Source: a virus. From it: 64,000 nucleotides of DNA. The DNA is taken from the IMG/VR virus record IMGVR_UViG_3300030328_002400, positions 35,648 to 99,647 of that record, one strand, 5' to 3'. Below are positions 1-63,519 of the stretch, piece after piece; the stretch's first letter is position 1; each line of letters opens with the position of its first letter. Below the pieces are notes generated by a model. That model did not search any database and had not been told where the DNA came from. It saw only the letters and a program-made list of their open reading frames with translations. The position numbers were made by a program, and so were the translations under genes.

Positions 1-361
1 TGTAGCCGTACCATCAGGTATAAGAACTTCTGCAGCAATAGGTTTTTATGATGGAGGTATTTATATTGGACCTTCTACTATATCGGCATCCCAACCAGAC
101 CTTACAGGAGTTTGGAGATTAGATGTAGAAACTCAAGAATGGACAAAACTAGATAATCCACCTTCTAATATGGGCTTCCCAACTAATGGACCTGGTGACT
201 TTGCTTCTACTCCTGAATGTAGAATTAGTGATGGACTGGTATTTGGTGGTACAACTACTACAACTACAACAGATCCTAATACAACAACCACTACAACCAC
301 TGCAGTTCCAGGAGTAAGAACAATATTTACTAAATTTAACCTTTTTAACCAATCAGTATAA
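1..361 (+). CDS. 3' end of a poly-Thr-linked fibre/decoration protein, truncated by the window start
   Basis: The frame is open from position 2 to TAA 359-361, so the ATG at 170 is internal. Thr runs flank the last segment, as in the neighbouring genes. Confidence 0.7.
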   Translation, partial: VAVPSGIRTSAAIGFYDGGIYIGPSTISASQPDLTGVWRLDVETQEWTKLDNPPSNMGFPTNGPGDFASTPECRISDGLVFGGTTTTTTTDPNTTTTTTTAVPGVRTIFTKFNLFNQSV

Positions 362-362
362 G

Positions 363-3300: not shown

Positions 3301-3509
3301 TATATGAATTAGAAATGTCTTATCAGAAATCAGCTCCTGGAGATGATGATACAATATTACAAACAGCAATAGGGGCAGGTGCTTCATTAGTTTCAGATAG
3401 TGATACGGGTGTAGCTCAAAGTATAATAGGACCTATTACTACTACATTTAGTCCAACTAATGTAACTGGTGGAACTATAACAATCGGATTTAGTCAAACA
3501 TCACCATAA
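363..3509 (+). CDS. Trypsin-like (S1, Nal1-like) serine protease fused to poly-Thr-linked beta-rich domains; putative virion surface protein
   Basis: Triad motifs in order: LTNNHV (His ~798), VDAA (Asp ~990), GDSGS (Ser ~1398), plus the GTLG and IVGLVYAG strands. The N-terminus GIGLGKK..G..T...IQIAVPEKKP..IP...TDVVE resembles Nal1-type prodomains. Three long S/T tracts separate the C-terminal modules. Confidence 0.8.
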   Translation: MEVTQAVHDKILELHKLYPKATGIGLGKKIVNGVDTGEFAIQIAVPEKKPISQIPAGELVSAEVDVDGLKIKTDVVEISYNIRMTCDGDCGNINPNPHNAANRATQRPLKSGIAVSSRNNDSTVGTLGGFVIHSATSGVVGLTNNHVSINDAFFTSDRDINGFLLNDAFPVNRVYNNVQGPSTPTSNNFGVSLRYVPIHSIASGQVNQVDAAICSVAQEDFSSTASWLQVGLESIMGPDAPPFASTQELDNILATNPPLYTAGYRTGAKGLEPECPLRVSSSPQLVSPICYQMQNPTQADLDLLCVDSDYAVPCTFTRSIQFVKPTQEDPNSQTPGCYNPIYSGDSGSMLLADFNGVIKIVGLVYAGSGNATGTIYGLACRIDDIVDQLGIEQYVTTGGVGSSLMIDPDSVEYITIDGASDEKIIYCENEEYWQVGFTGSLEANCGGNTTTTTSSSTSTSTSTSTSTSTSTSTSTSTSSTTTSTTTPVPTTTTTTTVAPLVGCLEFDYTTLIVNDTWYTSPTVPATNPSLYARANFNTGPTTNTTSYTNWLAVPNVNYDVVFNIGGVEYNAVYQYTNVGVGAVTVPHGNFSTNANIFSAMSAFQFSNIDINGQDLTSVLSTFDYTTGDGYKVTAYGDCTPTTTTTTTPVPTTTTTTSSSTSSTSTTTTTAVPTVKLNWYLETDTPADIDTVSMEISRNGVSEATSSITTATTPTTGFVDCNTGDTIAVTITNTKAGTNNLNNRGILDGVVLLNDTSLETGSKVSTFSFTKTGATEDLEMKGNVEPTTTTTSTTTSFVMTWEFEGVEPSTTKSWRDTTLEIFNNGVTVVGPLTFDSGTPTGSGTFTVSPGDKITQSLTTDNNPSSYPQYAEHEQYKGSVSGGVTLLDTDSGFIAANGSKTDTLTLLTIGATPTDPKIKYKVIVTAASTSSITVDMEDIGSTAQFLSITDTTDSNIGKFFEKTSTTASDGTYTTEFFQEGHVYELEMSYQKSAPGDDDTILQTAIGAGASLVSDSDTGVAQSIIGPITTTFSPTNVTGGTITIGFSQTSP

Positions 3510-3534
3510 GGTGAACAAATAAAATAATAAAATT

Positions 3535-4668
3535 ATGTCAACACAAAATTGCTCAAACTGTTATAACGGCTGTACTGAAATTACTTCAGACAAGTGCGTT
3601 AAATATACAGGTGTAGACGTTCCTATAATGGGAATACAAAATGGTGATTCTCTATCTTATGTAGAGCAAGCACTTATTACCTTTTTAGGTTCTGCACTTG
3701 ATGGCACAGGAATACATCCTGTTGTCCAACCGTCAGATATATGTCCTGTAGTACAGGCTCATCTAGATGATTGTCAACCTTTATCTTTAAATGATTATTT
3801 AACTGCTATAATAAGAACTATATGTGAGTTAAATGAAGAAATAGCTAATTCAGGAAATCAAAAATCAGCAACTGCCTATAATTTAGAATGTATAGGAGCA
3901 GTTACAGATGATACTAGTACAGTAGAGGTATTACAACAAACCATAGTAAAGTTATGTGAAGTTGAGCAATCACTGAATACTTTTATTACTGATGTTACTA
4001 CTAACTATGTACAAATTGTTGACATAAATACATACATAGAGAATTATCTAAATACTAATCCTCAACAACAATTGATAAGTAATAGGATGGTTCCATATTC
4101 TGCTCAACCATATTTTGGACCTTTAACTCCATTTGATTCAAATGGTGCAGGTATAGGTGACTGGGATAGAATTTTTCTATGTAATGGACAAAATGGAACA
4201 CCAGATCTAAGAGGAAGAGTTGTAGTTGCTTCAACTGATATGGTTGGAAGTTCTTTATCTAATGTAGTTGATCCTGCGGTTGCTGGTAATCCTGCATACG
4301 ATTTTGGAACAGTTCATGGATCTAATCAAGTTACTTTAACTACTGCTCAGATCCCTTCACATAATCATAACAATGTGGCTACTTCAATAATAACTCCTGC
4401 AGCTCACACACACCACTGTGTATCTTTAGGAAATCTTGATGAGACTAATCCTGTTGCAACTAACAACTTTGTTCAGGAAGGGAAATCAACAGGAGGTAAC
4501 TTAGGATATGCTCTGAGAGGAACATCAGTTTCAGCTACTGTAGGATTAACTGACAGTGTTAGTTTATCTTGTGCTACTGATGTAGATATTCAACCTTTTG
4601 GTGGAGGACTATCACACGATAACTACCAACCTAGTTATGCATCATACTATATAATTTACATACCTTAA
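3535..4668 (+). CDS. Tail fibre protein with Cys-rich shaft and tail-collar domain
   Basis: LCNGQNGTPDLRGRVVV collar motif, LTTAQIPSHNH / HTH metal-knot motifs, C-terminal HDNYQPSYASYYI. Confidence 0.8.
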   Translation: MSTQNCSNCYNGCTEITSDKCVKYTGVDVPIMGIQNGDSLSYVEQALITFLGSALDGTGIHPVVQPSDICPVVQAHLDDCQPLSLNDYLTAIIRTICELNEEIANSGNQKSATAYNLECIGAVTDDTSTVEVLQQTIVKLCEVEQSLNTFITDVTTNYVQIVDINTYIENYLNTNPQQQLISNRMVPYSAQPYFGPLTPFDSNGAGIGDWDRIFLCNGQNGTPDLRGRVVVASTDMVGSSLSNVVDPAVAGNPAYDFGTVHGSNQVTLTTAQIPSHNHNNVATSIITPAAHTHHCVSLGNLDETNPVATNNFVQEGKSTGGNLGYALRGTSVSATVGLTDSVSLSCATDVDIQPFGGGLSHDNYQPSYASYYIIYIP

Positions 4669-4679
4669 TACTAAAAACA

Positions 4680-4988
4680 ATGGCATACTTACCTACTAAT
4701 CCTTGTTGTACTGATGTAGTTGTGAACACTCCTTGTGGATGTTCCAGCACGGTAACTTGTGATCCATGTAAAACTGGAGTACATTTTTCTAAATCTATTA
4801 CATACAATGGACCGATATTACCTTGTTCTAACGTTCAGCCTTGCGATGATTTAAACGTTGCTTTATCTAAAATCGATGAACTTCTTTGTACATTGAAGAA
4901 TCAACAAGCAACAAACACACAAGAAATTGCATTAATGAAAGAGAACATTATAAATATAAATGAAACTTTAAATAACTGTTGCCCATAA
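4680..4988 (+). CDS. Small Cys-rich coiled-coil structural protein
   Basis: Cys-rich N-terminus; the ITYNGP..C..VQPCDDL..AL segment resembles VKYTGV....IQNGDSL in the upstream gene; heptad-like C-terminus. Confidence 0.6.
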   Translation: MAYLPTNPCCTDVVVNTPCGCSSTVTCDPCKTGVHFSKSITYNGPILPCSNVQPCDDLNVALSKIDELLCTLKNQQATNTQEIALMKENIININETLNNCCP

Positions 4989-4989
4989 T

Positions 4990-5238
4990 ATGGAAGCATT
5001 TATACAACTAACCACTGCAGGAAATAACACTGGACCCTTCAATCTATTCTCAGATGTAGATGGGTTCACTGCTGCTTTTGAAACTAGCATAAGTAAAGCT
5101 AGTTTATTGGCAGGATACACTAGTACTGTAGTTCCTGATTTTACTACTACAATCAAAGTAGCATCAGATTCACTATGTGAGAATAGTTTTGATATTATAT
5201 TACAACAACCAACAACAACAACAACCACAACAGTATAA
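4990..5238 (+). CDS. 'GPF-module' small virion protein with poly-Thr tail
   Basis: IQLTTAGNNTGPFNLFSDVDGF...LLAGY...VP...C; paralogous to the N-termini of 5241, 6390, 6625 and 18084. Confidence 0.65.
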   Translation: MEAFIQLTTAGNNTGPFNLFSDVDGFTAAFETSISKASLLAGYTSTVVPDFTTTIKVASDSLCENSFDIILQQPTTTTTTTV

Positions 5239-5240
5239 TT

Positions 5241-6377
5241 ATGGCTTTAATAGAAATAACATTAACAGTAGACGGACAAGCAGGACCATTTGATTTATTT
5301 TCAAATGTAGATAACTTTGTACAGGCTTTTGCTACACAAGTTCCTGCTGCAAGTTTAATTGCTGGATACATAGTAACAGCTCCTCCAGGAACTTCCACTG
5401 TTAAAGTTTGTTCTACAGGCGTATGTACTAATTGTATAGAGATCCCTACTAATTGTCCTACAACAACTACTACAACTAGTTCTAGTACATCAACTACTAC
5501 AAGTACTTCAACATCCACTTCAACTACTACAACAGAACAACCCCCTAATAAACTTAACTGGGAGCTGATAACGAACACTCCAGGTTCTCTACTTGCAGCA
5601 GATCCACAAAGTAGTAACTTAAAAATAGATGTTAATGGAGTTAATGTAGTAGATGCAACTATTACAGGTAATGCTTCTACACAAAGTGGAACTATACAAA
5701 TCTTACCAGGAGATGTAGTTTCTGCTACGATAGATAGTGATAGAACAGGTATATACAACTTTATTAATACTATTCAAAAAGATGGTTTATTATATCAGGC
5801 ACAAGATGTATGTAATTTGTGTAGTAATACTTTTGTAACTCTTATGAGTCCGGATTATACTGGAGCAGGAGTTGATGTAGACTTTAGTTTTGTTGCTGAT
5901 ACATATAAAGAAATTACAACAACAACAACTACAAGTTCTAGTTCTAGTACAAGTACTACAACAACCAGTACTTCTTCTTCAACAACTACAACTACTACAA
6001 CATGTGATTGTTCATTAAACGGTGCAAGTGCTGTTATATCAGGGACTACAACTACTAAACAACCACCACCAACTACTACTACTACTACTTTAAATAACTT
6101 ATGGCCAGCATTGAGATCCTTACAATCTACACCTAGCAGTGCTGCTGGTGCAGCTTGTGACTATGATTTAATTAGTTTTGTATGGAAAGATGGACTCGGA
6201 CCTCTGCCTGATGTAGGAGATATGTTATATAATAACTCACAAGGTACTGCTGCATTTAACGGACAAAACGAGTATTGGCACTATGAGCCTTCAATAGCAG
6301 GTCCAACAACTAGTAGTTATAACATCAAAGTATCAAATCTAGGTGAAATACTTTCTAAATTCCCTTGTACGGCTTAA
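5241..6377 (+). CDS. 'GPF-module' protein with poly-Thr linkers and two further beta-rich domains
   Basis: N-terminal AGPFDLFSNVDNF module; S/T tracts; the KLNWEL domain start matches KLNWYL in the protease protein. Confidence 0.65.
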   Translation: MALIEITLTVDGQAGPFDLFSNVDNFVQAFATQVPAASLIAGYIVTAPPGTSTVKVCSTGVCTNCIEIPTNCPTTTTTTSSSTSTTTSTSTSTSTTTTEQPPNKLNWELITNTPGSLLAADPQSSNLKIDVNGVNVVDATITGNASTQSGTIQILPGDVVSATIDSDRTGIYNFINTIQKDGLLYQAQDVCNLCSNTFVTLMSPDYTGAGVDVDFSFVADTYKEITTTTTTSSSSSTSTTTTSTSSSTTTTTTTCDCSLNGASAVISGTTTTKQPPPTTTTTTLNNLWPALRSLQSTPSSAAGAACDYDLISFVWKDGLGPLPDVGDMLYNNSQGTAAFNGQNEYWHYEPSIAGPTTSSYNIKVSNLGEILSKFPCTA

Positions 6378-14300: not shown

Positions 14301-17300
14301 ATTCAATTCACCAGACACATCTTTTGGACAACCATTCTTAGGAAGCGTACTTAAGTTAGAAAGTGTAATGTTTGGAGGAGGTAAAGCTCACTTTGTAGAA
14401 GTAAAAGATAATGCTAAATATAAACTACTATCTAAAGAAGCACAAATAGATGCTTTAAATAGTGCAGAGAATATAGCAGCAATGGGAGCTGGTAGTGGTT
14501 TCGATGCTGGTATAATGTTTACAGTATATCAATCATATCTTACTATATATATAAATGGTATTACAAGAAAGAACTATGGAATGCAGTTTAATTCTAGAGC
14601 TAACTATGATTATCATCTACCTGTTCCTAATAACTCACGTGGAGGAATAAAGCAAAGAGAAATAGACTTAGCAAGATACTTGATACCAGGAGTGCAGTCT
14701 TTCAATAATGGACAACCTCCAATAAATAACTGGAATAGAGAGTCGTCAGTATTCATCGATACTAAAACTAGTGATGATATTTTGGCACTTCCTCTACCAC
14801 AAAATACTCCTGAACTTAGACCAAACTTAAATGAACCTTCTACCTTAGTTGAGTATTCAAGATTTAATATAGGGGAATCAGGAGCATGTGATAAACCAGG
14901 ATTGGAGCAAGATATTCAAGTGGTTTCCTACTATGCTTCTATGAAAAATATTATCCCTAATCAATGGGGTCAGATTAATTCATTCCAAAGAATAGACACA
15001 GGTTATCAGAAACTTGTTACAGCCACTGGAACAGATACAGTATTTGGTGGAGATGTATTCATATCTAGATTTGCATTTAAAACTAAACTACCATTCTTTA
15101 TAGATAACAGAGTTAATGGACCAGATGACTCAGATATATTCTTTGATGAAATAGGAAATGTTGCATATCCTAAATTCTGGCATTCATCTAGATCTATATT
15201 GTCTAACTATAGAGTAACTGAAGGTGATGATCAAAACATGTACAACCTTATATCTGTTAAGGCACGCAATTTTGATTGTCCAACAGACCCTTCTTTATAT
15301 CCACAAGGAGGAGGTCAAACTGAGAATCCTATAGCAGGAACTTATAGAACATTCTATGATGGGTATATGTATTTGTTTGCGTATGGTATTCCTAATTTCT
15401 ATTGTGAGACAGTATATAATACAGATCTAAGACAAGCCTTTAATACCAATGAAGGAGACTTCTGGCCTCATGTAAGTGGTGGTATTCCTGATGATTGGTT
15501 ACAGGAAACAAATGTACCTATTGCTCAAGATAATACATACTACTATAATGTTACATTCTCAAAACAAAATAAAGAAAATGTATTTACTCAACTACCTCCA
15601 GACTGGATAGAAGATTTATGTTTTACATACTTCCCATTCAGAGCAATCTATTCAGATACACAGGGAGATAGTGCAGATAACAGAGTAAACAACTGGCTTG
15701 TATATAGAGCTCTTTCTTTCCATGACTTCCCACAGAACTATGGTAATCTTACATCCTTAGATGGTATGATGGATAGAGCTGTGTTAGCACGTTTTGAAAA
15801 CAAAGCTTTACTATATAACAAGCTATTAACAATTGATACTAGTAACCCACAAGCAGCCTACATTGGTAATCCTAGATTATTTGATGGAGCTCCTCCTGTA
15901 GATTTTGCAGAAACAGACCTAGGTTATGTAGGGTCTCAACACAAGTTCCTACTCAAATTACCTTACGGATCAGTTACTGCAGATGCTAAAAGAGGTCAGA
16001 TATTCTTAATGGCTGGCAGCGAAGTTGTAGATATAACTAAGTTTGGTTCTGGTGTAAATAGATTTATAACAAATCATTTACCATTTGAGATTCTAGAATA
16101 CTTCCCAGATGTATATATAGATAATCACTTTAAGGGTATAGGATTACATGGTGTATATGATAGTAAGTTTGATAGAATTATTGTTACAAAATTAGATTAC
16201 ATTCCACTTAGTGATAAGGTTAAATATAACTCTGAAAGTAAGAAGTTCTTTGTAGAAACAGTAATAGACGAAGAACTCATAGTACAAGAAGTATTTTTAT
16301 TTGACAAAGAATATTTCTGTAGTAAATCTTGGACTATGTCGTTTGACTTTAGTACAAAAACGTGGATATCTTTTCACTCCTATCTACCTAATTTTTACAT
16401 AGGAGAAAACAACTTCTACTATTCAGGTATAAATACTTGCTGTACAGAGTTTACTGCTATACTAGACACTCCAGATAGAAGTAGAATTGGAGAGGAAGAT
16501 CCCCTATTAGATGTAATTGCAGGAGAACTTCAACCCCCTGTTCTTATTACAACAAGTACAACTACTACTTCTAATCCTTTATTTACAACTACTACAACTA
16601 CTGCATATGTTCCTGACTGTACAGTTAATATAGTGATATCTGAAGAACTAGAATGTGAAATTGATGGAGTGGGATATATTACTGTTCCTAGTCCTACAAC
16701 TACAACTATATGTGCTAGACCTAGTGGTTTATTAACTGATTCATTTACTGAAGGATATCAAACTAAAACAGCAGCAGGTCCAGTGGTAGGTACAAATAGT
16801 GCACAAGAAGCTTGTGCAATTGGATCTCTGTTAAAAAATGTCTCACCTGGCTCACAAGAGATAGTGGGGATAAGCTTCGTATATCAAGCTACTCCAGTTA
16901 TATCTCAAGATGGTTTAATAGGAAGCTCGGTATATTTTGGAGACAGTTCAGACTGTACACGTGTTGCTGATGGATGGTATACTAGAGAAGCTGATGATTA
17001 CACTAGAGCTATATATGTTGAAGATGGTGTAATAAGAGATGATATAGATTGTGACTGTAATACACTTACAACTACTACTACTACGTACACTGGAGGAATA
17101 AACGAGTGTTGTGGATTCATTATTAACAATGATAATGCAGAGGCATATATATGGAATAACGCAAGTGTTATTAACTTTGGTAACTTAATAAACATTCCAG
17201 GTTATACAGGTGGTAAGTTAGCTTTAGGTCCAAATACATTATATGTATGGGATGGTAGTTTAGCATTTAAGAAATGGACTATAAACACAACTAACTGGAG

Positions 17301-18081
17301 TGCAGTACAAGAGTTAGATATAACACCAGCTGGATTTAATACAACAGCTGGAGTGGTAGTTAAAGATGATAATACATTAATAGCACTAGACACAACTGCC
17401 GGTAATGTAGTGGAGATAGATACTACATCAGCAGCAGTAACAGTTAAGTTTGCTTTACCAGCTGGTTATACATGGACAACAAATCTACTATATACCACCG
17501 CAGGTAAACTAATAACAATAGGAAAAAACACTGCAGCAGCAGAACACCACTATTTTGAGTGGGATTATGATAATGCAACAGTAACACCAGAGGTAGATAT
17601 AACAATCACTGCTGCACAATGGGATCACACAAAACCAGTTTCAGCTATTTACGAGTGTGAGTGTAATACAACAATAATTGCAGGTTCAACTACATGTGAC
17701 TATGCATATTTCCAAGTAACTCCATTAACTCCATTTGATGTAGTTTTCCTACAGGATGCATCTAGTAGTTGTTTACCTATACGTCCTACAGTTTGGGAAA
17801 CTCGAGAAGTAAGTAACATCACTCAACAAGCTTCTTGTACTAGTCCAGCTGGTGGACCTACAACCACTACTACAACTACCACTGCATTTGTTACTACTAC
17901 AACTACTACTAGTATATATCCATGCTATAAGTGGGAAGTAACAGGACCTATTGTAGTGTGGTATGATGACTGTAATGGAATACCTCAGAGTTTATCAGTA
18001 GCTAGTGGAGAAACAAAACAATATTGCACAAACGTTAATGTTGGTGCAGAAGGATCATTAATAGGAGCATGTGATATATAG
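11311..18081 (+). CDS. Tail stabilisation/muzzle protein (P22 gp10-like), N-terminal part, with insertions and a poly-Thr-linked C-terminal extension
   Basis: GLNMD..YALNA start, YWTDGINPRRY, GTYQFAVQY, GYMRDEVYAFEIVF, FGGDVFI and WTMSF...WISFHSYLP motifs typical of crAss-like stabilisation proteins. Confidence 0.75.
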   Translation: MATRKEIEDAKSQKAAAAKKDDKAQKGQVRLEFNQAQTGLNMDSTINQVKTGSLTYALNATVENFDSSSVNYQNEPGNEPCLSFPSGYELIGKHTIPEKKKNIFFLTNPSTGDSEIGFMFNNDCQYQTLVNAPCLRFTIDNPIHKVVHRITNCTTEIYWTDGINPRRYLDIDNIPYILDPNSDPGCDPVYTDKLDCNQLKIQPNFDIPFVEINSVTNVGNLVAGTYQFAVQYADAAGSDLTSYYSVTNPTPIADPLITTVNFNYPVGKSIEVRVSNLDLTGQYNYFNLAVIKTINDITSVELVGTYNITEADEIITYTGADQSPIQLSIADIFEKYPYYDVAQDLTSAQDTLIWSNLTSIDRINYQQIANNITLQWETHRIPPGEDYSNELNATNYRGYMRDEVYAFEIVFLLKNGKQTDSFHIPGPANLNPQPDVPNTNNDFIGEPEYYVGNIGYSPYWKIYNNATVVSESTQDTQDPNYKGPWYYGNFAYWESTEKYPCNTDIWGDLADTPIRHHKFPDVNVSPIVENPTITYDGNNIVPIMQDSDAIFPIGVKINNDQITQLITDSNLTQNQKDDIVAFKIVRGDRGTNKSVIAKGILRNMNKYTRDDQDYFYPNYPYNQVSGEDAFLQENNNAWNVDSKSYLVYFPDKRYGLTGNYIFPIPIAIDVEEDEGVYQYTSIVNGRPTQAKIKQNCIIEVCSLTRPISLQGRMTIGPGDFDVWACGHDSNGIPRSGYRVAWENPFNDINFDGTIPQSLFIKAPEGIGAGFRRCTIITPIDPEFETYTHVYSGYDPGDGDGGDAGGERYDPSQSGNGHMYDPDIDGTGINPQPKVELKNIMGVDCDLTSVSFVNAGLAGTGRYRPESFDPNSNCPEPVEGLNSYGCDTCIKTENPDNLIPWPQAAFGQPTNPLPQFAVNDSVSPQLAFPMPTDETENAGGVWELNNTLTPAETHRGGYDGFNSRYSRRSCLKCDRDIPIKPLDGADYEEAKDVLDKQIFNSPDTSFGQPFLGSVLKLESVMFGGGKAHFVEVKDNAKYKLLSKEAQIDALNSAENIAAMGAGSGFDAGIMFTVYQSYLTIYINGITRKNYGMQFNSRANYDYHLPVPNNSRGGIKQREIDLARYLIPGVQSFNNGQPPINNWNRESSVFIDTKTSDDILALPLPQNTPELRPNLNEPSTLVEYSRFNIGESGACDKPGLEQDIQVVSYYASMKNIIPNQWGQINSFQRIDTGYQKLVTATGTDTVFGGDVFISRFAFKTKLPFFIDNRVNGPDDSDIFFDEIGNVAYPKFWHSSRSILSNYRVTEGDDQNMYNLISVKARNFDCPTDPSLYPQGGGQTENPIAGTYRTFYDGYMYLFAYGIPNFYCETVYNTDLRQAFNTNEGDFWPHVSGGIPDDWLQETNVPIAQDNTYYYNVTFSKQNKENVFTQLPPDWIEDLCFTYFPFRAIYSDTQGDSADNRVNNWLVYRALSFHDFPQNYGNLTSLDGMMDRAVLARFENKALLYNKLLTIDTSNPQAAYIGNPRLFDGAPPVDFAETDLGYVGSQHKFLLKLPYGSVTADAKRGQIFLMAGSEVVDITKFGSGVNRFITNHLPFEILEYFPDVYIDNHFKGIGLHGVYDSKFDRIIVTKLDYIPLSDKVKYNSESKKFFVETVIDEELIVQEVFLFDKEYFCSKSWTMSFDFSTKTWISFHSYLPNFYIGENNFYYSGINTCCTEFTAILDTPDRSRIGEEDPLLDVIAGELQPPVLITTSTTTTSNPLFTTTTTTAYVPDCTVNIVISEELECEIDGVGYITVPSPTTTTICARPSGLLTDSFTEGYQTKTAAGPVVGTNSAQEACAIGSLLKNVSPGSQEIVGISFVYQATPVISQDGLIGSSVYFGDSSDCTRVADGWYTREADDYTRAIYVEDGVIRDDIDCDCNTLTTTTTTYTGGINECCGFIINNDNAEAYIWNNASVINFGNLINIPGYTGGKLALGPNTLYVWDGSLAFKKWTINTTNWSAVQELDITPAGFNTTAGVVVKDDNTLIALDTTAGNVVEIDTTSAAVTVKFALPAGYTWTTNLLYTTAGKLITIGKNTAAAEHHYFEWDYDNATVTPEVDITITAAQWDHTKPVSAIYECECNTTIIAGSTTCDYAYFQVTPLTPFDVVFLQDASSSCLPIRPTVWETREVSNITQQASCTSPAGGPTTTTTTTTAFVTTTTTTSIYPCYKWEVTGPIVVWYDDCNGIPQSLSVASGETKQYCTNVNVGAEGSLIGACDI

Positions 18082-25810: not shown

Positions 25811-25829
25811 TTTGTATATTAATATTATA
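25811..25829 (+). promoter_or_regulatory. Conserved 19-bp intergenic motif (candidate phage late promoter)
   Basis: TTTGTATATTAATATTATA; 2 mismatches to the copies at 60982 and 61057. Confidence 0.5.
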
Positions 25830-54266: not shown

Positions 54267-54285
54267 TTCTTATATTATTATTATA
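54267..54285 (+). promoter_or_regulatory. Conserved 19-bp intergenic motif (candidate phage late promoter)
   Basis: TTCTTATATTATTATTATA; 3 mismatches to the 60982/61057 copies. Confidence 0.45.
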
Positions 54286-54326: not shown

Positions 54327-55550
54327 ATGAAAAAATATTTAGTTTTATTGGTTTGCATTTTTATGACTCAGACCTTATCAGCTCAAGAGCAAGAAGATAA
54401 AGGTAAGTTCTTTAAGTCTCTTTATGAAGATCTTTTAAAATATAGTACCATATATGGTGCAGGTGATATCTCCAACTCAGTAGAAGCAAGACAACAAACT
54501 TACTTTGTAAGAACAAATCCAGATGGAGGTTTATATTCCATACCTGATGTAGTTGATAATACACCAGATTATCCTTTTGATTATAGATATGGATTTGGAA
54601 TCCGTAAGTTAGCAAGATTTAATTATGAAAGAAAACCTAAAAACTTTTATGATGGAACTGAAGAACAATTAGCATTTACAGCTCCATCTTCTGCACTTGA
54701 AGGATTAGAATATCAATTCCACTTTGAAAAAGAAAGATGGAGAGGAGAGAACTTCAAGAATCATAGATTCTTTTTAAAGCATACAGGTAAATACCACATA
54801 GTAAAAGTAGAGAGTAGAGAGGTTGGTAAGATAAACTTAGATTATCAGTCAGCTGAAGTAAGAGGTAGACTTCCTATTGGAGAAAAGTTTAGTATATCAG
54901 CCGGAGCTATCTACCGTACTCATGACCGTGCTTATGGATATAACCCAATTGAAATATGGTTAAATGAAACACAAATAATAAATGGTGAGGAATACCCTGC
55001 TAACTATTGGTATACTTTAGGTTTTGAATATGGTTACGATGATATTTATTATACACAAACCAGTGTAGATCCAAACACAGGAGAACAAATACAAACATCT
55101 GATTGGTATTGGGTAGACTCTGAAGGAAACATAGTAGCTGATTCTGATCTAGAATTTAGAGAAACAGTATTCACTGATCTTATGAACCGTTATAATAATG
55201 AAGTATGGGATCAACTAGATGCTTTTGGTGAGATAGCACCAATAGTAGGTGTAGATTTTTATCATTACAAAAGCAAGTTCTGGTTACATGCATATGCTAA
55301 TTATATATTACCATATCATAGATACATAGAGGGAGATGAGGCTGTATCCTATTTAAATAGAAATAACTGGGGTAAAGGTGGATTGGTTCAAGATGCAGAG
55401 TTAGAACAGTGGGAGGACTACTCCGCAGGAGTAAGTTTTGGCTGGAAGATAAACAAGAACTTAGGAATATTTGCAGAAGGAGAATATAGTAAGATGTGGG
55501 ATAGTGAATTATTTCAAACTACATTTGGATTAAACTTTACCTTTAGATAA
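54327..55550 (+). CDS. Exported outer-membrane beta-barrel-like protein
   Basis: Sec signal peptide (MKKYLVLLV...LSA|QE); alternating aromatic strands; C-terminal beta-signal-like TTFGLNFTFR. Confidence 0.7.
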   Translation: MKKYLVLLVCIFMTQTLSAQEQEDKGKFFKSLYEDLLKYSTIYGAGDISNSVEARQQTYFVRTNPDGGLYSIPDVVDNTPDYPFDYRYGFGIRKLARFNYERKPKNFYDGTEEQLAFTAPSSALEGLEYQFHFEKERWRGENFKNHRFFLKHTGKYHIVKVESREVGKINLDYQSAEVRGRLPIGEKFSISAGAIYRTHDRAYGYNPIEIWLNETQIINGEEYPANYWYTLGFEYGYDDIYYTQTSVDPNTGEQIQTSDWYWVDSEGNIVADSDLEFRETVFTDLMNRYNNEVWDQLDAFGEIAPIVGVDFYHYKSKFWLHAYANYILPYHRYIEGDEAVSYLNRNNWGKGGLVQDAELEQWEDYSAGVSFGWKINKNLGIFAEGEYSKMWDSELFQTTFGLNFTFR

Positions 55551-55552
55551 TC

Positions 55553-56281
55553 ATGAAAAAAATATTAAGTCTTGTATTAATATTAATGACTAGTTGTGCT
55601 ACTTTTCAACCAGTAGAGAAATGCTGTGAAACTGAAGTAGTATATTTAGATGAAGTTCAAAGTGATTCAACTAATTTATTTACAAGTTTAGAATTTAATA
55701 CTATTACCTTAGACTTTAGGCCATTAAGACCTAGATTTTTTTATGGTCATAGTTATGGGTATTGGCACACAAGACCACTATGGTTAGATTTTGACTACTG
55801 GCATAATGATTTTTATTACAGTAATTTTTATTCTTATCATTATCCTTATTACTCTTATTATTATAGACCATGGAATCATTGGGATTGGTATATGAGACCT
55901 TGGAGACCAGCTAACAATTGGTATCAAGGACCATTCAATAATCCAAGTTATAATGTAGTTTATAATGCTAGTAGAAGAAATAGCGTTTCAAATCTGAATA
56001 GAAACATTGCTACTGCAATTGCAAATAATAGAATTGAGAATGCTAATAATAGACCTATTATTAATAATAATAAGCCTATTATAAATAACAAACCTATTGT
56101 TGTTAATAATAGTTATAAACCTAACAATAACTATAAACCAAGTAATAACAACTATAGTTCTAAACCAAATAATAATTATAAACCAAGCAGTAATTCTAGA
56201 ACTACTTATAATGGTTCAGGATCAAATAATAGTTATAGCAGACCTTCAGGATCTGTTTCATCATCAAGAAAAATTAATTAA
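55553..56281 (+). CDS. Lipoprotein with Y/W/H-rich core and N/S-rich low-complexity tail
   Basis: Lipobox LMTS|C; NNKPII and NNNYKP repeats. Confidence 0.7.
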   Translation: MKKILSLVLILMTSCATFQPVEKCCETEVVYLDEVQSDSTNLFTSLEFNTITLDFRPLRPRFFYGHSYGYWHTRPLWLDFDYWHNDFYYSNFYSYHYPYYSYYYRPWNHWDWYMRPWRPANNWYQGPFNNPSYNVVYNASRRNSVSNLNRNIATAIANNRIENANNRPIINNNKPIINNKPIVVNNSYKPNNNYKPSNNNYSSKPNNNYKPSSNSRTTYNGSGSNNSYSRPSGSVSSSRKIN

Positions 56282-56282
56282 A

Positions 56283-56570
56283 ATGGCAGGAGCACCAAAA
56301 ATAGGAGAAGAAACTAAAGTCACTCTAGATTTAAAAACAATTGGAATGATAGTGGGATTTGTAATCTCATTATCTACTATGTGGTTTACATTAAAAGCTG
56401 ACATAGCAAAAGCTATGGAGTTACCAGCTCCAGTTATTGATAGAGTAGAATATGATCTAAAAGATGAATTAGTACGTCAAACCATTATGGATACTCAAGA
56501 AGATGTAGAAATGCTTCTAGAGAAATTTGAAAAAATGGAAGAGAGAATCTATGATCTTACTAAAAAGTAA
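56283..56570 (+). CDS. Single-TM protein with C-terminal coiled coil
   Basis: ATG 56283 directly after the upstream stop; TM IGMIVGFVISLSTMWFTL. Confidence 0.65.
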   Translation: MAGAPKIGEETKVTLDLKTIGMIVGFVISLSTMWFTLKADIAKAMELPAPVIDRVEYDLKDELVRQTIMDTQEDVEMLLEKFEKMEERIYDLTKK

Positions 56571-56572
56571 TT

Positions 56573-56989
56573 ATGAAAAAAACAATTCTATTCATTTTGT
56601 TTTTATTATTTAGTATAAAAGCTATAGCTCAAGAATGGGTTAATGATAAAAATTTTGATAGTGTAATTAGTCAAGGTGCATTTGATGATGACTCTGAAGG
56701 TATAATTGTTATAGAATTCTGGGCAGAATTTAATTCAGCAAATGCTTTTCATGATTGGGAACAGATAAATGACCTAGATGGTGTAGAGTACTATAGATGT
56801 GATGTTAGCCAATCTCCTCAATCAAAAAAGAAATATAGAGTAAGAATGGTTCCTACCATCTTAATCTTTGCTGGAGATGATGCCTTTATAAAATTTCAAG
56901 CAAAAGCAGGTTTAGATCTTTTATGTCCTGTGGATGTACCTAAAATGAAAGCTGCTGTTGAGGTTGTCCGTAGAGAATCTCAATTCTAA
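56573..56989 (+). CDS. Exported thioredoxin-fold protein lacking CxxC
   Basis: Signal peptide; NFDSVI, VIEFWAEFN (in place of WCxxC), YRCDV, YRVRMVPTILIF. Confidence 0.7.
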   Translation: MKKTILFILFLLFSIKAIAQEWVNDKNFDSVISQGAFDDDSEGIIVIEFWAEFNSANAFHDWEQINDLDGVEYYRCDVSQSPQSKKKYRVRMVPTILIFAGDDAFIKFQAKAGLDLLCPVDVPKMKAAVEVVRRESQF

Positions 56990-56997
56990 AATATAAT

Positions 56998-57087
56998 ATG
57001 TCAGAAGCTAGACTTGCTATATTGGTTTTTTATATTATAGTAGCTTTTATTATATACACTTTTGCAAAGGAAGAATTTAAAGATTAA
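56998..57087 (+). CDS. 29-aa single-TM microprotein (absent from the ORF track)
   Basis: MSEARLAILVFYIIVAFIIYTFAKEEFKD; its stop abuts the next ATG. Confidence 0.45.
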   Translation: MSEARLAILVFYIIVAFIIYTFAKEEFKD

Positions 57088-57492
57088 ATGGAAAAATATA
57101 TATACAGAGGAAAATTAGAAAGAGTAGTTGACGGTGATACGGTTGACGCTTTAATTGATTTAGGATTTGATACTTGGGTTAAGAAGAGAATTAGATTTCA
57201 CGGTTTAGATACTTGGGAGTGTAGAACGAGAGATAAGGACGAGAAGAAGAAAGGACTAGCTGCTAAGGCTAGAGTAATAGAGCTCTTAACTGAAGTTACA
57301 GATAAAGAACATTTCTTTAGATTAAAATCTCATGGTACTGGTAAATATGGTAGAGTACTAGGAGAACTCTTTGTTAGAGATTGTGATGGCAAGACTATAG
57401 ACGTGTGTGCTACATTAATAGAAGAAGGTCATGCCTATGTGTATGACGGGGGAAAGAAAAAAGTTTATACAAAACCTACCAAGGTAGCATAG
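57088..57492 (+). CDS. Thermonuclease (SNase-like)
   Basis: RVVDGDTVD, IDLGF, RIRFHGLDTWE, GKYGRVLG. Confidence 0.9.
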   Translation: MEKYIYRGKLERVVDGDTVDALIDLGFDTWVKKRIRFHGLDTWECRTRDKDEKKKGLAAKARVIELLTEVTDKEHFFRLKSHGTGKYGRVLGELFVRDCDGKTIDVCATLIEEGHAYVYDGGKKKVYTKPTKVA

Positions 57493-57652
57493 TCATACCA
57501 ATTTTATTTAGCAGACATTCCAGTATAATAAATATAATACCACAAACTACTATCTGATAGAACCACCATTTCCAACCTGTCAATGATAAAGCCCACTTAC
57601 GTAATGGTGACTTCATTGCAAGACTATATAAATATTGTTTTATTTTTTCCAT
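57476..57652 (-). CDS. 58-aa membrane protein (absent from the ORF track)
   Basis: MEKIKQYLYSLAMKSPLRKWALSLTGWKWWFYQIVVCGIIFIILECLLNKIGMTMLPW. Confidence 0.5.
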   Translation of the reverse strand: MEKIKQYLYSLAMKSPLRKWALSLTGWKWWFYQIVVCGIIFIILECLLNKIGMTMLPW

Positions 57653-57656
57653 ATCT

Positions 57657-57699
57657 AAATAGAGTAAATGCTCTATGATTTCCCACAGAGCATTGACTC
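57657..57699 (-). terminator. Hairpin downstream of the minus-strand lipoprotein gene
   Basis: GAGTAAATGCTCT / AGAGCATTGACTC inverted repeat with a weak T tail on the minus strand. Confidence 0.5.
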
Positions 57700-57714: not shown

Positions 57715-58182
57715 TTATTCTTTGACAACAGAAACGTTATAAGAACCGTCACCATTTTTATCAAATTTTAATACACCATCTGGTTTGTTATCTGGACCCA
57801 TTGATATAGGATCAGCATAAGGAGTCCACGGTGCTACTGGCATTGCCCAGTGTACTGTGGTAGTTGTAACATAAGTTTGTCCATTCATTACATCTAATAC
57901 TAGCCAATTTTGAGCACCACCGCTAACATCTTTCCAAGTACTACCTGGACAAAATTCTGTATCAACAGCAGGACTAAAATCATCATGTGAATGATCAGAC
58001 TTTACATTTCCTTTACTTACTCTTAAACAATCAGTTTTAGATGCACTTAGCCAAACGTCTTGTCTTACTTCTACAGCTTCTTCTACCGGAGCAACTTCTT
58101 CTGCTACAGCTTCAGCTGGTTTGTTGTTACCACACCCTATCATTAATAGAGAGAATAACATAATTAAAAAATTGTTTTTCAT
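57715..58182 (-). CDS. Lipoprotein of unknown function
   Basis: Lipobox LMIG|C followed by an A/E/V-rich tether. Confidence 0.7.
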   Translation of the reverse strand: MKNNFLIMLFSLLMIGCGNNKPAEAVAEEVAPVEEAVEVRQDVWLSASKTDCLRVSKGNVKSDHSHDDFSPAVDTEFCPGSTWKDVSGGAQNWLVLDVMNGQTYVTTTTVHWAMPVAPWTPYADPISMGPDNKPDGVLKFDKNGDGSYNVSVVKE

Positions 58183-60981: not shown

Positions 60982-61075
60982 TTTGTATATTATTACTATA
61001 TGCTGGAGCTACTCAATTAACAAATATACTATTAAATTTGACTGAGTCCTGCAAAATTTGTATATTATTACTATA
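60982..61075 (+). promoter_or_regulatory. Two identical 19-bp motifs (candidate tandem late promoters)
   Basis: TTTGTATATTATTACTATA at 60982-61000 and 61057-61075. Confidence 0.6.
61021..61028 (-). promoter_or_regulatory. Bacteroidota-type -7 element facing nrdB
   Basis: Minus strand TATATTTG (TAnnTTTG), with TTTG 23 nt upstream. Confidence 0.4.
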
Positions 61076-62638: not shown

Positions 62639-63046
62639 ATGAGTAAAGAAAAATTAAAAGAAGAAGTATTAGCAAAAATTGAGATTGATAAAATTGAAGC
62701 TCAAAGTACAGCTAAAGAAATAGCATCTAAACATTTAGGTAAGCATGCTATAAATTATATAACAGTATTAGTAGTAATAGGTGTAATTAGTTCTCAATTT
62801 CTAGAAGGTGGTGCTTTAACTGCCGTTATTGGTTTAGTTTCTACTGCTGCAATGGCTATGATAGGTATACTACAACACATAGTTGGAGCTGTAGAAAAAG
62901 AAGAAAAGCCAGAACTAGAAATAATTAAAAGTTTAATTAAAGAGTTATCTGATAAAGAAGATGATCCAATGCAGGTAGATGTTACAGATACAGATGTCAC
63001 AGTAACTAAAGGTGAAAGCAAAGTAACTGCAAGTAAGAAGAAATAA
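62639..63046 (+). CDS. Two-TM membrane protein (holin-like)
   Basis: Two hydrophobic helices, charged termini, adjacent to a holin-like gene. Confidence 0.55.
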   Translation: MSKEKLKEEVLAKIEIDKIEAQSTAKEIASKHLGKHAINYITVLVVIGVISSQFLEGGALTAVIGLVSTAAMAMIGILQHIVGAVEKEEKPELEIIKSLIKELSDKEDDPMQVDVTDTDVTVTKGESKVTASKKK

Positions 63047-63048
63047 TT

Positions 63049-63519
63049 ATGAGTAAACAAAAAAAGAAATTTAAAGATACTAAGGTGGGGCAATTTCTAA
63101 GTCAGAAAGTGCCAGATCTTTTAGGTATTGCTGGAGATATACTACCAGATGCAGGAGTTATGGGGTTAGTTAAAAACCTTATTAAAAAAGAAGACCCTGC
63201 GGTTTTACCTCCAGAAGATAAAGAAAAAGCATTAAAGCTTTTAGAGATGGATATGGTGGAGATGCAAGAAGTCAGCAAAAGATGGCAGGCAGATATGCAA
63301 TCAGATTCATATCTTAGTAAAAACACAAGACCATTAACATTAATATTTTTAACTGTATCATTAGTTATATTTATTTTATTAGATGGTTTTAACATAGAGT
63401 TTGGAATAGATGCTGGCTGGGTAGATTTACTCAAGTCACTTCTCATTACCGTTTATGTGGCCTACTTTGGAAGCAGAGGGGCGGAAAAATTCAAGTCAAT
63501 TAGTAATAACAAAAAATAA
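63049..63519 (+). CDS. Holin-like protein (3TM/GTA-holin-like)
   Basis: RWQADMQSDSYLSKNTRP followed by a TM helix and AYFGSRG.EK. Confidence 0.65.
   Translation: MSKQKKKFKDTKVGQFLSQKVPDLLGIAGDILPDAGVMGLVKNLIKKEDPAVLPPEDKEKALKLLEMDMVEMQEVSKRWQADMQSDSYLSKNTRPLTLIFLTVSLVIFILLDGFNIEFGIDAGWVDLLKSLLITVYVAYFGSRGAEKFKSISNNKK

What the first reader, a model, noticed from the sequence alone, without database searches (positions are those of the whole stretch)
54327..57087. Phage-encoded outer-membrane cassette: beta-barrel, low-complexity lipoprotein, TM coiled-coil, CxxC-less thioredoxin and micro-TM peptide
Seen: five tightly coupled genes, all with export or membrane signals, behind their own copy of the 19-bp motif. 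Known: phage porins and lipoproteins can mediate superinfection exclusion or nutrient uptake; barrel-plus-lipoprotein pairs are typical of Bacteroidota envelopes. Inference: a trans-envelope complex of unknown function (receptor masking, solute channel, or lysis/spanin-like role).
Basis: partly seen in the sequence, partly recalled or inferred. Interest (0 to 1): 0.72.

Follow-up and report, generated by a model that had tools for sequence, protein, structure and literature searches.

The report
Phage outer-membrane barrel trio, lysis-linked
An uncultured marine phage of Bacteroidota carries three always-linked genes (an outer-membrane barrel, an inner-membrane helical protein and a cysteine-free exported thioredoxin) that in about half of related phage lineages sit beside the cell-bursting genes, so they may be an undescribed way of opening the host's outer membrane; nothing has been tested.

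Summary
The five ORFs exist as described, 0-8 nt apart, behind a 16/19 copy of a motif that is over-represented in the window. Only three form a conserved unit. A (54327-55550) folds as a ~14-strand outer-membrane barrel. C (56283-56570) has one N-terminal TM helix and a ~57-aa helical tail. D (56573-56989) is an exported thioredoxin fold with F-N-x-x-N in place of WCGPC.

All 46 dereplicated A-seeded loci carry A+C+D, as do 61 of 63 C-seeded loci. The family appears virus-only and was not found in any cultured phage.

The lipoprotein B is a mobile gene inserted here: its relatives in 20 other phage loci are never beside the trio. The 29-aa ORF is unverified. The nuclease gene is variably present.

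In 22 of 42 lineages an endolysin or holin lies within 1.3 kb downstream on the same strand, involving four unrelated endolysin families and two holin families. This window's lineage is an exception: ribonucleotide reductase genes intervene, the holin-family gene is 6 kb away, and in a complete relative the endolysin is about 43 kb away.

Best reading (0.45): a lysis-associated envelope module acting on the outer membrane, analogous to spanins but not a member.

The parts
54267..54285 (+). Degenerate copy (16/19) of the 19-bp motif TTTGTATATTATTACTATA, 41 nt upstream of the barrel gene. It is a candidate promoter or operator of the cassette.
   Evidence: 6 hits against 0.39 expected. The motif is conserved upstream of A in sister lineages. 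Its function is not tested.
54327..55550 (+). A: a 407-aa exported protein predicted to be a ~14-strand outer-membrane beta-barrel. It has four long outward loops and one long, conserved periplasmic turn (residues 95-125).
   Evidence: AF2 pLDDT 71.6, pTM 0.64. VIA-align: EstA barrel Z 13.1, KdgM 12.4, Tsx 12.2, NanC 11.6, LpxR 11.4. All top Foldseek hits are OM barrels. No Pfam hit. 2342 relatives. The nearest ESM Atlas clusters are 100% viral.
55553..56281 (+). B: a 242-aa lipoprotein with an aromatic-rich middle and an Asn-rich tail. It is a lineage-specific insertion between A and C and is not part of the conserved module.
   Evidence: Lipobox found by pattern. Absent from 80 A-seeded loci. 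198 relatives exist, but the 20 viral loci holding them have no A, C, D or lysis gene nearby. Weak N-terminal likeness to a 116-aa lipoprotein in the same slot of L042 (E 2e-7).
56283..56570 (+). C: a 95-aa protein with an ~18-aa N-terminal tail, one TM helix (about residues 19-38) and a ~57-aa helical C-terminal part with a 3-4 hydrophobic repeat at 75-92. Predicted topology is N-in/C-out, in the inner membrane.
   Evidence: Alignment A2. Present beside A in 75/80 loci. At least 592 loci in IMG/VR. Weak PHROG hits: phrog_1009 (unknown function) in 12/30 members, holin in 4, holin/anti-holin in 3, Rz-like spanin in 1. Long forms carry a ~100-aa N-terminal extension without a signal peptide, which argues for N-in.
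56573..56989 (+). D: a 138-aa exported thioredoxin fold without CxxC (F-N-S-A-N in place of W-C-G-P-C). The cis-Pro loop is kept (P94 invariant) and the C-terminal residue is a conserved aromatic.
   Evidence: Pfam PF00085 E 2.1e-6. Profile against PDB thioredoxins E 2.5e-10. AF2 pLDDT 88.1. Foldseek TM 0.83, rmsd 2.2 A to T. thermophilus thioredoxin. Alignment A3.
56998..57087 (+). E: a 29-aa ORF with one hydrophobic helix, unverified as a gene.
   Evidence: The ORF is listed. No relative was found in 80 loci, though tblastn has little power at 29 aa.
57088..57492 (+). F: an SNase-type nuclease with no export signal. It lies in the same gene string, is not an envelope protein, and is variably present.
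   Evidence: PF00565 E 5.5e-6. phrog_452 endonuclease E 4.8e-33. Present in 5/80 loci. A DNA contig of a relative joins 57083 to 57663 without it.
63049..63519 (+). Holin-family gene, the nearest recognisable lysis gene of this phage. It lies 6.2 kb downstream of the trio, beyond the oppositely oriented ribonucleotide reductase genes.
   Evidence: phrog_3427 holin E 1.2e-17. The same family directly follows endolysins beside the trio in other lineages.
60982..61075 (+). Two exact copies of the 19-bp motif (60982-61000 and 61057-61075) ahead of the gene block that ends with the holin-family gene.

Best explanation
The real unit is a three-gene, phage-only envelope module: A, an outer-membrane beta-barrel; C, an inner-membrane-anchored helical protein facing the periplasm; and D, a periplasmic, redox-dead thioredoxin fold. 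I read it as part of the lysis apparatus of marine Bacteroidota phages. It most likely acts on the outer membrane at the last step of lysis, doing the job that spanins do in phages of Proteobacteria. The inferred working model is as follows. A is inserted into the outer membrane during late infection. C sits in the inner membrane. D, which keeps the peptide-binding cis-Pro groove of thioredoxins but has no cysteines, acts as an adaptor between C and the conserved periplasmic parts of A (the turn at 95-125 and the N-terminal helix). Once holin and endolysin have removed the wall, this link destabilises or opens the outer membrane. What is shown: the folds of A and D, the export signals, the strict co-occurrence of A, C and D, and their frequent same-strand adjacency to endolysins and holins. 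What is inferred: the physical contacts, the timing and the effect on the outer membrane. B, E and F are lineage-specific passengers in the same gene string.
For: Folds: A is an OM barrel and D has a thioredoxin fold lacking CxxC. Co-occurrence: 46/46 dereplicated A-seeded loci hold A+C+D, including a branch only ~30% identical, and every locus lacking C or D is cut within 819 nt of A or at A's own edge. 61/63 C-seeded loci with room hold A and D. C and D are always adjacent in that order and are duplicated as a pair around A in L061/L066/L067. Lysis linkage: of 42 dereplicated loci with at least 1.5 kb downstream, 20 have an endolysin and 22 an endolysin or holin within 1.3 kb on the same strand. 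These involve four unrelated endolysin types (Peptidase_M15_3, Amidase_2, PG_binding_1+Amidase_2, phrog_33083) and two holin families (Phage_holin_4_1, phrog_3427). In C-seeded loci, 42/64 have a lysis gene within 2.5 kb. In L194, C alone abuts an M15 endolysin. All annotated weak PHROG hits of C are lysis proteins. No canonical spanin candidate: only two lipobox ORFs exist in the 99.6-kb record, and neither is a small o-spanin or a u-spanin. The periplasmic turn 95-125 of A is as conserved as the strands (0.51) yet modelled at pLDDT ~30, as expected for a docking segment. Literature: most cultured flavobacterial phages lack recognisable spanins (PMC8776804), and about 15% of phages are reported to lack a spanin, with alternatives known to exist (phiKT preprint abstract, 10.1101/515445). 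Shared motif: the cassette and the holin block are both preceded by the same motif.
Against: In this window's own lineage the trio is not beside lysis genes. Ribonucleotide reductase genes on the other strand follow it, and the holin-family gene is 6.2 kb away. In a complete relative (113,202 bp) the PG_binding+Amidase_2 endolysin is ~43 kb away. Twenty of 42 lineages show no recognised lysis gene next to the trio. The periplasmic part of C is only ~57 aa, about 8 nm as a single helix, which is short for spanning a periplasm even with D added. No barrel is known to act in phage lysis. Two C-seeded loci lack A, so C, or C and D, can exist without it. There is no experimental system: tblastn of A, C, D and four divergent family members found none of them in 50,697 phage records.
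Confidence: 0.45

Rival explanations
1. Lysis-timing control rather than membrane disruption. In this reading C is a holin, anti-holin or holin partner, and D is a periplasmic binding partner, as RI is for T4 holin T. A would be an outer-membrane sensor that reports superinfection or envelope state.
For: C members weakly match holin (phrog_1296) and holin/anti-holin (phrog_10340) families. C abuts an endolysin without A or D in L194. The genome encodes an rIIA-like protein (phrog_612, E 4e-58). The C-D pairing is the tightest link in the module.
Against: Separate holin-family genes are present next to the trio in many loci. The PHROG hits are weak (E 1e-3 to 1e-5), and the commonest one is a family of unknown function. 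There is no sequence likeness to T4 T or RI. This reading gives no clear role for a strongly conserved barrel.
Confidence: 0.2
2. Envelope remodelling unrelated to lysis, such as superinfection exclusion, receptor masking or protection of progeny from debris, by a phage-made outer-membrane protein with helpers.
For: Established knowledge: phages encode outer-membrane proteins and lipoproteins for exclusion (T5 Llp, lambda Lom/Bor). Variable lipoproteins are inserted between A and C in several lineages: B here, and 61-, 116- and 186-aa ones elsewhere. In 20 of 42 lineages no lysis gene is adjacent.
Against: A is unusually conserved for an exclusion gene: the top 120 clusters are at least 71% identical, and it is kept across several phage architectures. 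It shows repeated same-strand adjacency to four unrelated endolysin families. Exclusion does not explain a fixed partnership with an inner-membrane protein and a dead thioredoxin.
Confidence: 0.15
3. A solute channel (Tsx-, KdgM- or NanC-like) that imports nucleosides or sugars to feed phage replication.
For: Fold hits to KdgM (Z 12.4), Tsx (12.2) and NanC (11.6). Ribonucleotide reductase genes are near the trio in 36/80 loci and a nuclease follows it here.
Against: Non-channel barrels score as well or better (EstA autotransporter barrel Z 13.1, LpxR 11.4). There is no sequence match to any porin family. The reductase genes lie upstream in some lineages and on the opposite strand in this one, as expected at a module boundary. 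The idea explains neither C nor D.
Confidence: 0.07

Closest known systems
Two-component spanins (lambda Rz/Rz1 type; survey in PMC6139136)
   Same: C has the i-spanin layout of an N-terminal TM helix followed by a periplasmic helical part. The module pairs an inner-membrane protein with an outer-membrane protein. In about half of lineages it lies in or beside the endolysin/holin cluster. These phages lack a recognisable spanin.
   Different: The outer-membrane partner is a 400-aa beta-barrel with a type I signal peptide, not a small lipoprotein. A third, soluble thioredoxin-fold protein is obligatory. C is about 95 aa, whereas Rz is about 150 aa. The gene order is A-C-D or C-D-A, with no embedded or overlapping o-spanin gene. 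There is no sequence homology beyond one weak PHROG hit.
Thioredoxin (PF00085)
   Same: D has the same fold (TM 0.83, rmsd 2.2 A), keeps the cis-Pro loop and matches the family profile.
   Different: D has no CxxC and no conserved cysteine at the active site. It is exported by a Sec signal. A redox role is therefore unlikely, and a structural or binding role is inferred, as with host thioredoxin bound to T7 DNA polymerase (1t7p appears among the fold hits).
Small outer-membrane barrels (autotransporter beta-domain, KdgM/NanC, Tsx, LpxR)
   Same: A barrel of 12-14 strands with Z 11-13 over most of the chain. A has a signal peptide and a C-terminal aromatic-rich last strand.
   Different: There is no sequence family membership. 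A has three large conserved outward loops, one containing a 21-residue helix, and a long conserved periplasmic turn. No Ser/His catalytic set is conserved. The family is known only from viruses.
Disruptin (phage phiKT gp28; 10.1101/515445)
   Same: It is a non-spanin solution to the outer-membrane step of lysis in a spanin-less phage.
   Different: Disruptin is a single small cationic peptide, whereas this is a three-protein set with a barrel.

Membership tests
Two-component spanin | i-spanin: an N-terminal TM helix, N-in/C-out, with a periplasmic coiled-coil domain | tested here: inconclusive
   C has one TM helix and a helical tail with a 3-4 hydrophobic repeat at residues 75-92 (read from alignment A2). 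N-in topology is supported by long forms carrying a ~100-aa N-terminal extension without a signal peptide. No coiled-coil predictor or structure model was run, and the tail is only ~57 aa.
Two-component spanin | o-spanin: a small outer-membrane lipoprotein (lipobox Cys) encoded within, overlapping or just after the i-spanin gene | tested here: not met
   The conserved partners A and D have type I signals ending A|Q and no lipobox. The only lipoprotein beside C here (B, 242 aa, upstream) is absent from 80 related loci.
Two-component spanin | Encoded in the lysis cassette with endolysin and holin | tested here: inconclusive
   Met in 20-22 of 42 dereplicated lineages. Not met in this window's lineage, where the holin is 6.2 kb away and the endolysin ~43 kb away in a complete relative.
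Two-component spanin | Needed for outer-membrane disruption at lysis | not testable with these tools
   This requires a cultured phage or expression in a Bacteroidota host.
Unimolecular spanin (T1 gp11 type) | An N-terminal lipobox and a C-terminal TM helix in one protein | tested here: not met
   The pattern scan of the whole 99.6-kb record finds two lipobox ORFs, B and 57715-58182(-). Neither ends in a hydrophobic helix.
Thioredoxin (redox-active) | Thioredoxin fold | tested here: met
   PF00085 at 28.1 bits, above the 23.5 cut-off. PDB profile E 2.5e-10. Model TM 0.83.
Thioredoxin (redox-active) | CxxC active site | tested here: not met
   None of the 33 aligned members has Cys at the site. 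The window protein reads W-A-E-F-N-S-A-N there.
Outer-membrane beta-barrel protein | A Sec signal peptide and a closed transmembrane beta-barrel | tested here: met
   The signal peptide is read from the sequence (MKK...LSA|QE). The model has 14 long strands, and all top structural hits are OM barrels, with Z up to 13.1.
Outer-membrane beta-barrel protein | Membership of a named sequence family (porin, OmpA-like, autotransporter, Tsx, KdgM) | tested here: inconclusive
   No Pfam hit at E up to 1. The nearest named Atlas clusters score only 0.92-0.93. The fold hits do not single out one family.
Holin / anti-holin | Sequence membership of a holin family | tested here: inconclusive
   4 of 30 C members hit phrog_1296 (best E 9e-4) and 3 hit phrog_10340 (1e-3). 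12 hit phrog_1009, which has unknown function.

The most novel reading that the evidence does not exclude
The trio is a fourth kind of outer-membrane disruption device in phage lysis, after two-component spanins, unimolecular spanins and disruptin. In it a host-machinery-inserted beta-barrel is coupled through a redox-dead thioredoxin adaptor to an inner-membrane helical anchor. It would be the missing spanin equivalent of many marine Bacteroidota phages.
Probability: 0.33. Interest if true: 0.85.

Novelty: categorically new. Interest (0 to 1): 0.72.

Why it matters
How phages of Bacteroidota get through the outer membrane at lysis is largely unknown, because recognisable spanins are rare or absent in them (PMC8776804, PMC12596118). 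This module is abundant in ocean viromes: there are 2342 clusters (at 90% identity) of the barrel, and at least 592 IMG/VR loci with the anchor protein. It also crosses several phage architectures. If it is the outer-membrane step of lysis, it would add a new protein class to the lysis paradigm. It would also show a structural use of a dead thioredoxin fold, and provide a marker for finding lysis cassettes in uncultured Bacteroidota phages. If it is instead an exclusion or uptake device, it is still a very widespread phage-only outer-membrane protein family of unknown role.

Tried and rejected
- P0187 gave nothing; P0168 gave 15 loci.
- **Alignment-seeded locus search.** A first attempt with alignment A1 failed for lack of a conserved stretch.
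- **Cultured phages.** tblastn of A, C, D and four divergent family members against 50,697 GenBank phage records found no match. DNA search gave only nuclease hits.
- **Bacterial genomes.** The pattern scan of GTDB genomes with A found no relative. This scan finds only close relatives, so it is weak evidence.
- **Natural fusions as evidence of contact.** Three C-D read-through proteins exist (P0392, P0394, P0401). They are singletons, and at least two keep D's signal peptide inside the chain, so they look like indel or stop-loss artefacts. Rejected as evidence.
- **B as an o-spanin partner of C.** Rejected because B is absent from related trios and its relatives sit in unrelated contexts.
- **The 155-aa lipoprotein (57715-58182, - strand) as a relative of lipoproteins next to B homologues.** Only the signal peptides are alike.
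- **A as an outer-membrane lipid hydrolase** (fold hits to LpxR, OMPLA, PagL, PagP). No conserved Ser/His set is among the invariant residues. Not supported.
- **Pfam on long C forms.** The N-terminal extension gave no hit.
- **RNA runs.** Two metatranscriptome runs hold only 5-7% of the sampled words. Their contigs cover pieces of A and the B/C junction, but DNA carry-over cannot be excluded, and contigs give no starts, ends or levels.
Full report
**Context.** The window is bases 35648-99647 of a 99,647-bp IMG/VR virus record rated 88% complete. Its terminase, portal and major head protein match PHROG families 6681, 6547 and 11589. The terminase's nearest cultured relatives are phages of Cellulophaga, Flavobacterium and Bacteroides, crAss-like phages and one Leptolyngbya phage, at 26-40% identity. 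The window holds four giant ORFs of 2256, 2276, 4616 and 1973 aa just before the finding. The exported proteins A and D expose Gln after the predicted signal cleavage, and Q20 of D is invariant in 33 sequences. This is the Bacteroidetes Q-rule (PMC5837995). A Bacteroidota host is therefore likely, though inferred.

**Observation.** The 19-bp motif is real. It gives six matches at up to 3 mismatches against 0.39 expected, with exact copies at 60982 and 61057, a 2-mismatch copy at 25811, and a 16/19 copy at 54267-54285 ahead of the cassette. That weak copy is conserved upstream of the barrel gene in sister genomes whose intergenic DNA otherwise differs. This argues for a regulatory site, but its function is untested.

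**The proteins.**
- **A (407 aa)** has no Pfam match. A 28-sequence alignment reaching 23% identity gave an AF2 model with pLDDT 71.6 and about 14 long strands. An all-against-all structural search returned only outer-membrane barrels at the top: EstA barrel Z 13.1 (rmsd 4.8 A over 192 residues), KdgM 12.4, Tsx 12.2, NanC 11.6 and LpxR 11.4. Foldseek agreed. With both ends periplasmic, the model puts four long loops outside and one long turn (95-125) in the periplasm. That turn is as conserved as the strands (0.51 against 0.50-0.62; outward loops 0.28-0.46) but is modelled at pLDDT ~30. I read it as a possible docking segment, which is an inference. No Ser/His set is conserved.
- **C (95 aa)** has a short N-terminal tail, one TM helix and a ~57-aa helical tail.
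- **D (138 aa)** is a classical thioredoxin fold (pLDDT 88; TM 0.83, rmsd 2.2 A to a bacterial thioredoxin). It has a Sec signal, an invariant cis-Pro and F-N-x-x-N where WCGPC should be.
- **B** is a lipoprotein by its lipobox, with a low-complexity aromatic and Asn-rich body.

**Which genes belong together.**
- Eighty IMG/VR loci seeded with A and fifteen seeded with a ~30%-identical relative were compared. After dereplication at 95% identity of A, 46 of 46 loci carry A, C and D. Of the 12 loci lacking C or D, 11 are cut within 819 nt after A, and in one (L069) A lies at the locus edge so the upstream copy of D is cut off.
- The reciprocal test agrees. Of 63 loci seeded with C that have room on both sides, 61 hold A and D. 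The two exceptions are a C-D pair without A and a lone C abutting an M15 endolysin.
- The gene orders are A-C-D, C-D-A and C-D-A-C-D. C and D are always adjacent in that order.
- B and the 29-aa ORF were found in none of the 80 loci. B does have 198 relatives, but in 20 viral loci that hold them there is no A, C, D or lysis gene nearby. B is thus a mobile lipoprotein gene inserted here. Other lineages carry different lipoproteins in the same slot.
- The nuclease is in 5 of 80 loci, and a DNA contig of a relative skips it.

**What it sits next to.**
- Neighbour proteins were clustered and named. They include Peptidase_M15_3, Amidase_2, PG_binding_1+Amidase_2 and a phrog_33083-like endolysin, plus Phage_holin_4_1 and phrog_3427 holins.
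- Of 42 dereplicated loci with at least 1.5 kb downstream, 20 have an endolysin and 22 an endolysin or holin within 1.3 kb on the same strand. In the C-seeded set, 42 of 64 have one within 2.5 kb.
- By my own rough estimate, such a short stretch of a 40-160-kb genome would hold a given gene only a few percent of the time. The link also recurs with four unrelated endolysin families, which is hard to explain by shared descent alone.
- This window's lineage is an exception. The trio follows the 1973-aa gene, then comes the nuclease, then a lipoprotein and the two ribonucleotide reductase genes on the other strand. Then come two exact motif copies and a block of small genes ending in a phrog_3427 holin-family gene at 63049-63519.
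- No Amidase_2 or M15_3 was found in this incomplete record. In a complete relative with terminal repeats (113,202 bp), the barrel is at ~29.5 kb, the holin-family gene at 37.3 kb and a PG_binding+Amidase_2 endolysin at ~73 kb.
- A sister lineage with a different giant gene keeps the order trio, small genes, M15 endolysin (L004, L034). The reductase block here therefore looks like a rearrangement.

**Mechanism.**
- The evidence supports a lysis-associated envelope module. Because one member is an outer-membrane protein, I place it at the outer-membrane step.
- The record has no small lipoprotein or lipoprotein-plus-TM protein that could be a spanin. All annotated weak family hits of C are lysis proteins.
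- The bridge model (C in the inner membrane, D as adaptor using its intact peptide-binding groove, A in the outer membrane) is inferred.
- Points against: C's periplasmic part is short, half of the lineages show no adjacent lysis gene, no precedent exists for a barrel in lysis, and no cultured carrier is known.
- Rivals are lysis-timing control, exclusion or receptor masking, and a Tsx/KdgM-like channel. The last rests on fold hits that non-channel barrels match equally well, and on reductase adjacency that changes side and strand between lineages.

**Comparison with the known, and novelty.**
- The module works most like a two-component spanin but fails its membership test. The outer-membrane partner is not a lipoprotein, a third protein is obligatory, and the gene layout differs.
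- D is a thioredoxin by fold but not by chemistry. A belongs to no named barrel family, and its nearest Atlas clusters are all viral.
- Three full-text searches found no description of such a module. Surveys report that Bacteroidetes phages have at most unimolecular spanins (PMC12596118) and that most cultured flavobacterial phages have none recognisable (PMC8776804).
- The same trio has been reported by this scan in at least ten other genomes with the same reading. My counts above were made independently here.

**Expression.** Contigs from two marine metatranscriptome libraries of two studies cover pieces of A (54821-55096 at 100% identity; 55197-55358) and the B/C junction (56096-56356). RNA libraries can carry DNA, and contigs give no ends or levels, so this is only a hint that the genes are transcribed in the sea.

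Noticed in passing
window 63049-63519 and 62639-63046: There is a holin-family gene (phrog_3427, E 1.2e-17), preceded by a 135-aa protein with hydrophobic helices. DNA contigs of relatives join 62639 to 63061 with 23 other letters, so the 135-aa gene is absent or replaced in some strains.
   Followed up: partly
window 57088-57492: The SNase-type nuclease gene is variably present. It is in 5 of 80 related loci, and one DNA contig joins 57083 to 57663 without it.
   Followed up: partly
window 57715-58182 (- strand): A 155-aa lipoprotein has no relative in the 80 loci. It and B are the only two lipobox ORFs in the whole 99.6-kb record, and they flank the trio. A strong hairpin followed by a T run (57694-57667, - strand) follows it.
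   Followed up: partly
window 11311-54222: There are four giant ORFs (2256, 2276, 4616 and 1973 aa) in a row. The 2276-aa one carries an endolysin-like stretch (phrog_669, residues 1976-2192), as expected of an ejected wall-cutting protein.
   Followed up: no
window 25811-25829; 60982-61000; 61057-61075: The 19-bp motif copy at 25811 ends 2 nt before the start codon of the 823-aa gene. Two exact copies lie 75 nt apart ahead of the small-gene block. All good copies are on the + strand in intergenic gaps.
   Followed up: partly
window 252-6092 and 16538-17943: Many ACT/ACA-rich direct repeats encode Thr/Ser-rich linkers inside several large ORFs.
   Followed up: no
window 56160 (inside B): There is an 18-nt insertion polymorphism in the Asn-rich repeat region of B, seen in one DNA run and one RNA-library contig. 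At 55833 some contigs leave out 12 nt.
   Followed up: no
L061, L066, L067: Some phages carry two different C-D pairs, one on each side of the barrel gene, followed by an amidase or M15 endolysin and a holin.
   Followed up: partly
L088-L102 (e.g. L093:7470-8048): In a branch about 30% identical, C is 139-222 aa long; the 190-220-aa forms carry an extra ~100-aa N-terminal part without a signal peptide. A 183-207-aa lipoprotein related to one in L036 lies between A and C. Pfam gave no hit for the extension.
   Followed up: partly
L194:3998-5046: A lone C homologue lies directly before an M15 endolysin with no barrel or thioredoxin gene. L180 has C-D without a barrel within 4 kb.
   Followed up: partly
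BFVD entry A0A516LKJ4: A 342-aa UniProt viral protein is a remote structural relative of the barrel (Foldseek E 1.1e-25, 22% identity). Its phage could not be named with the tools at hand, but it may point to a cultured carrier.
   Followed up: partly
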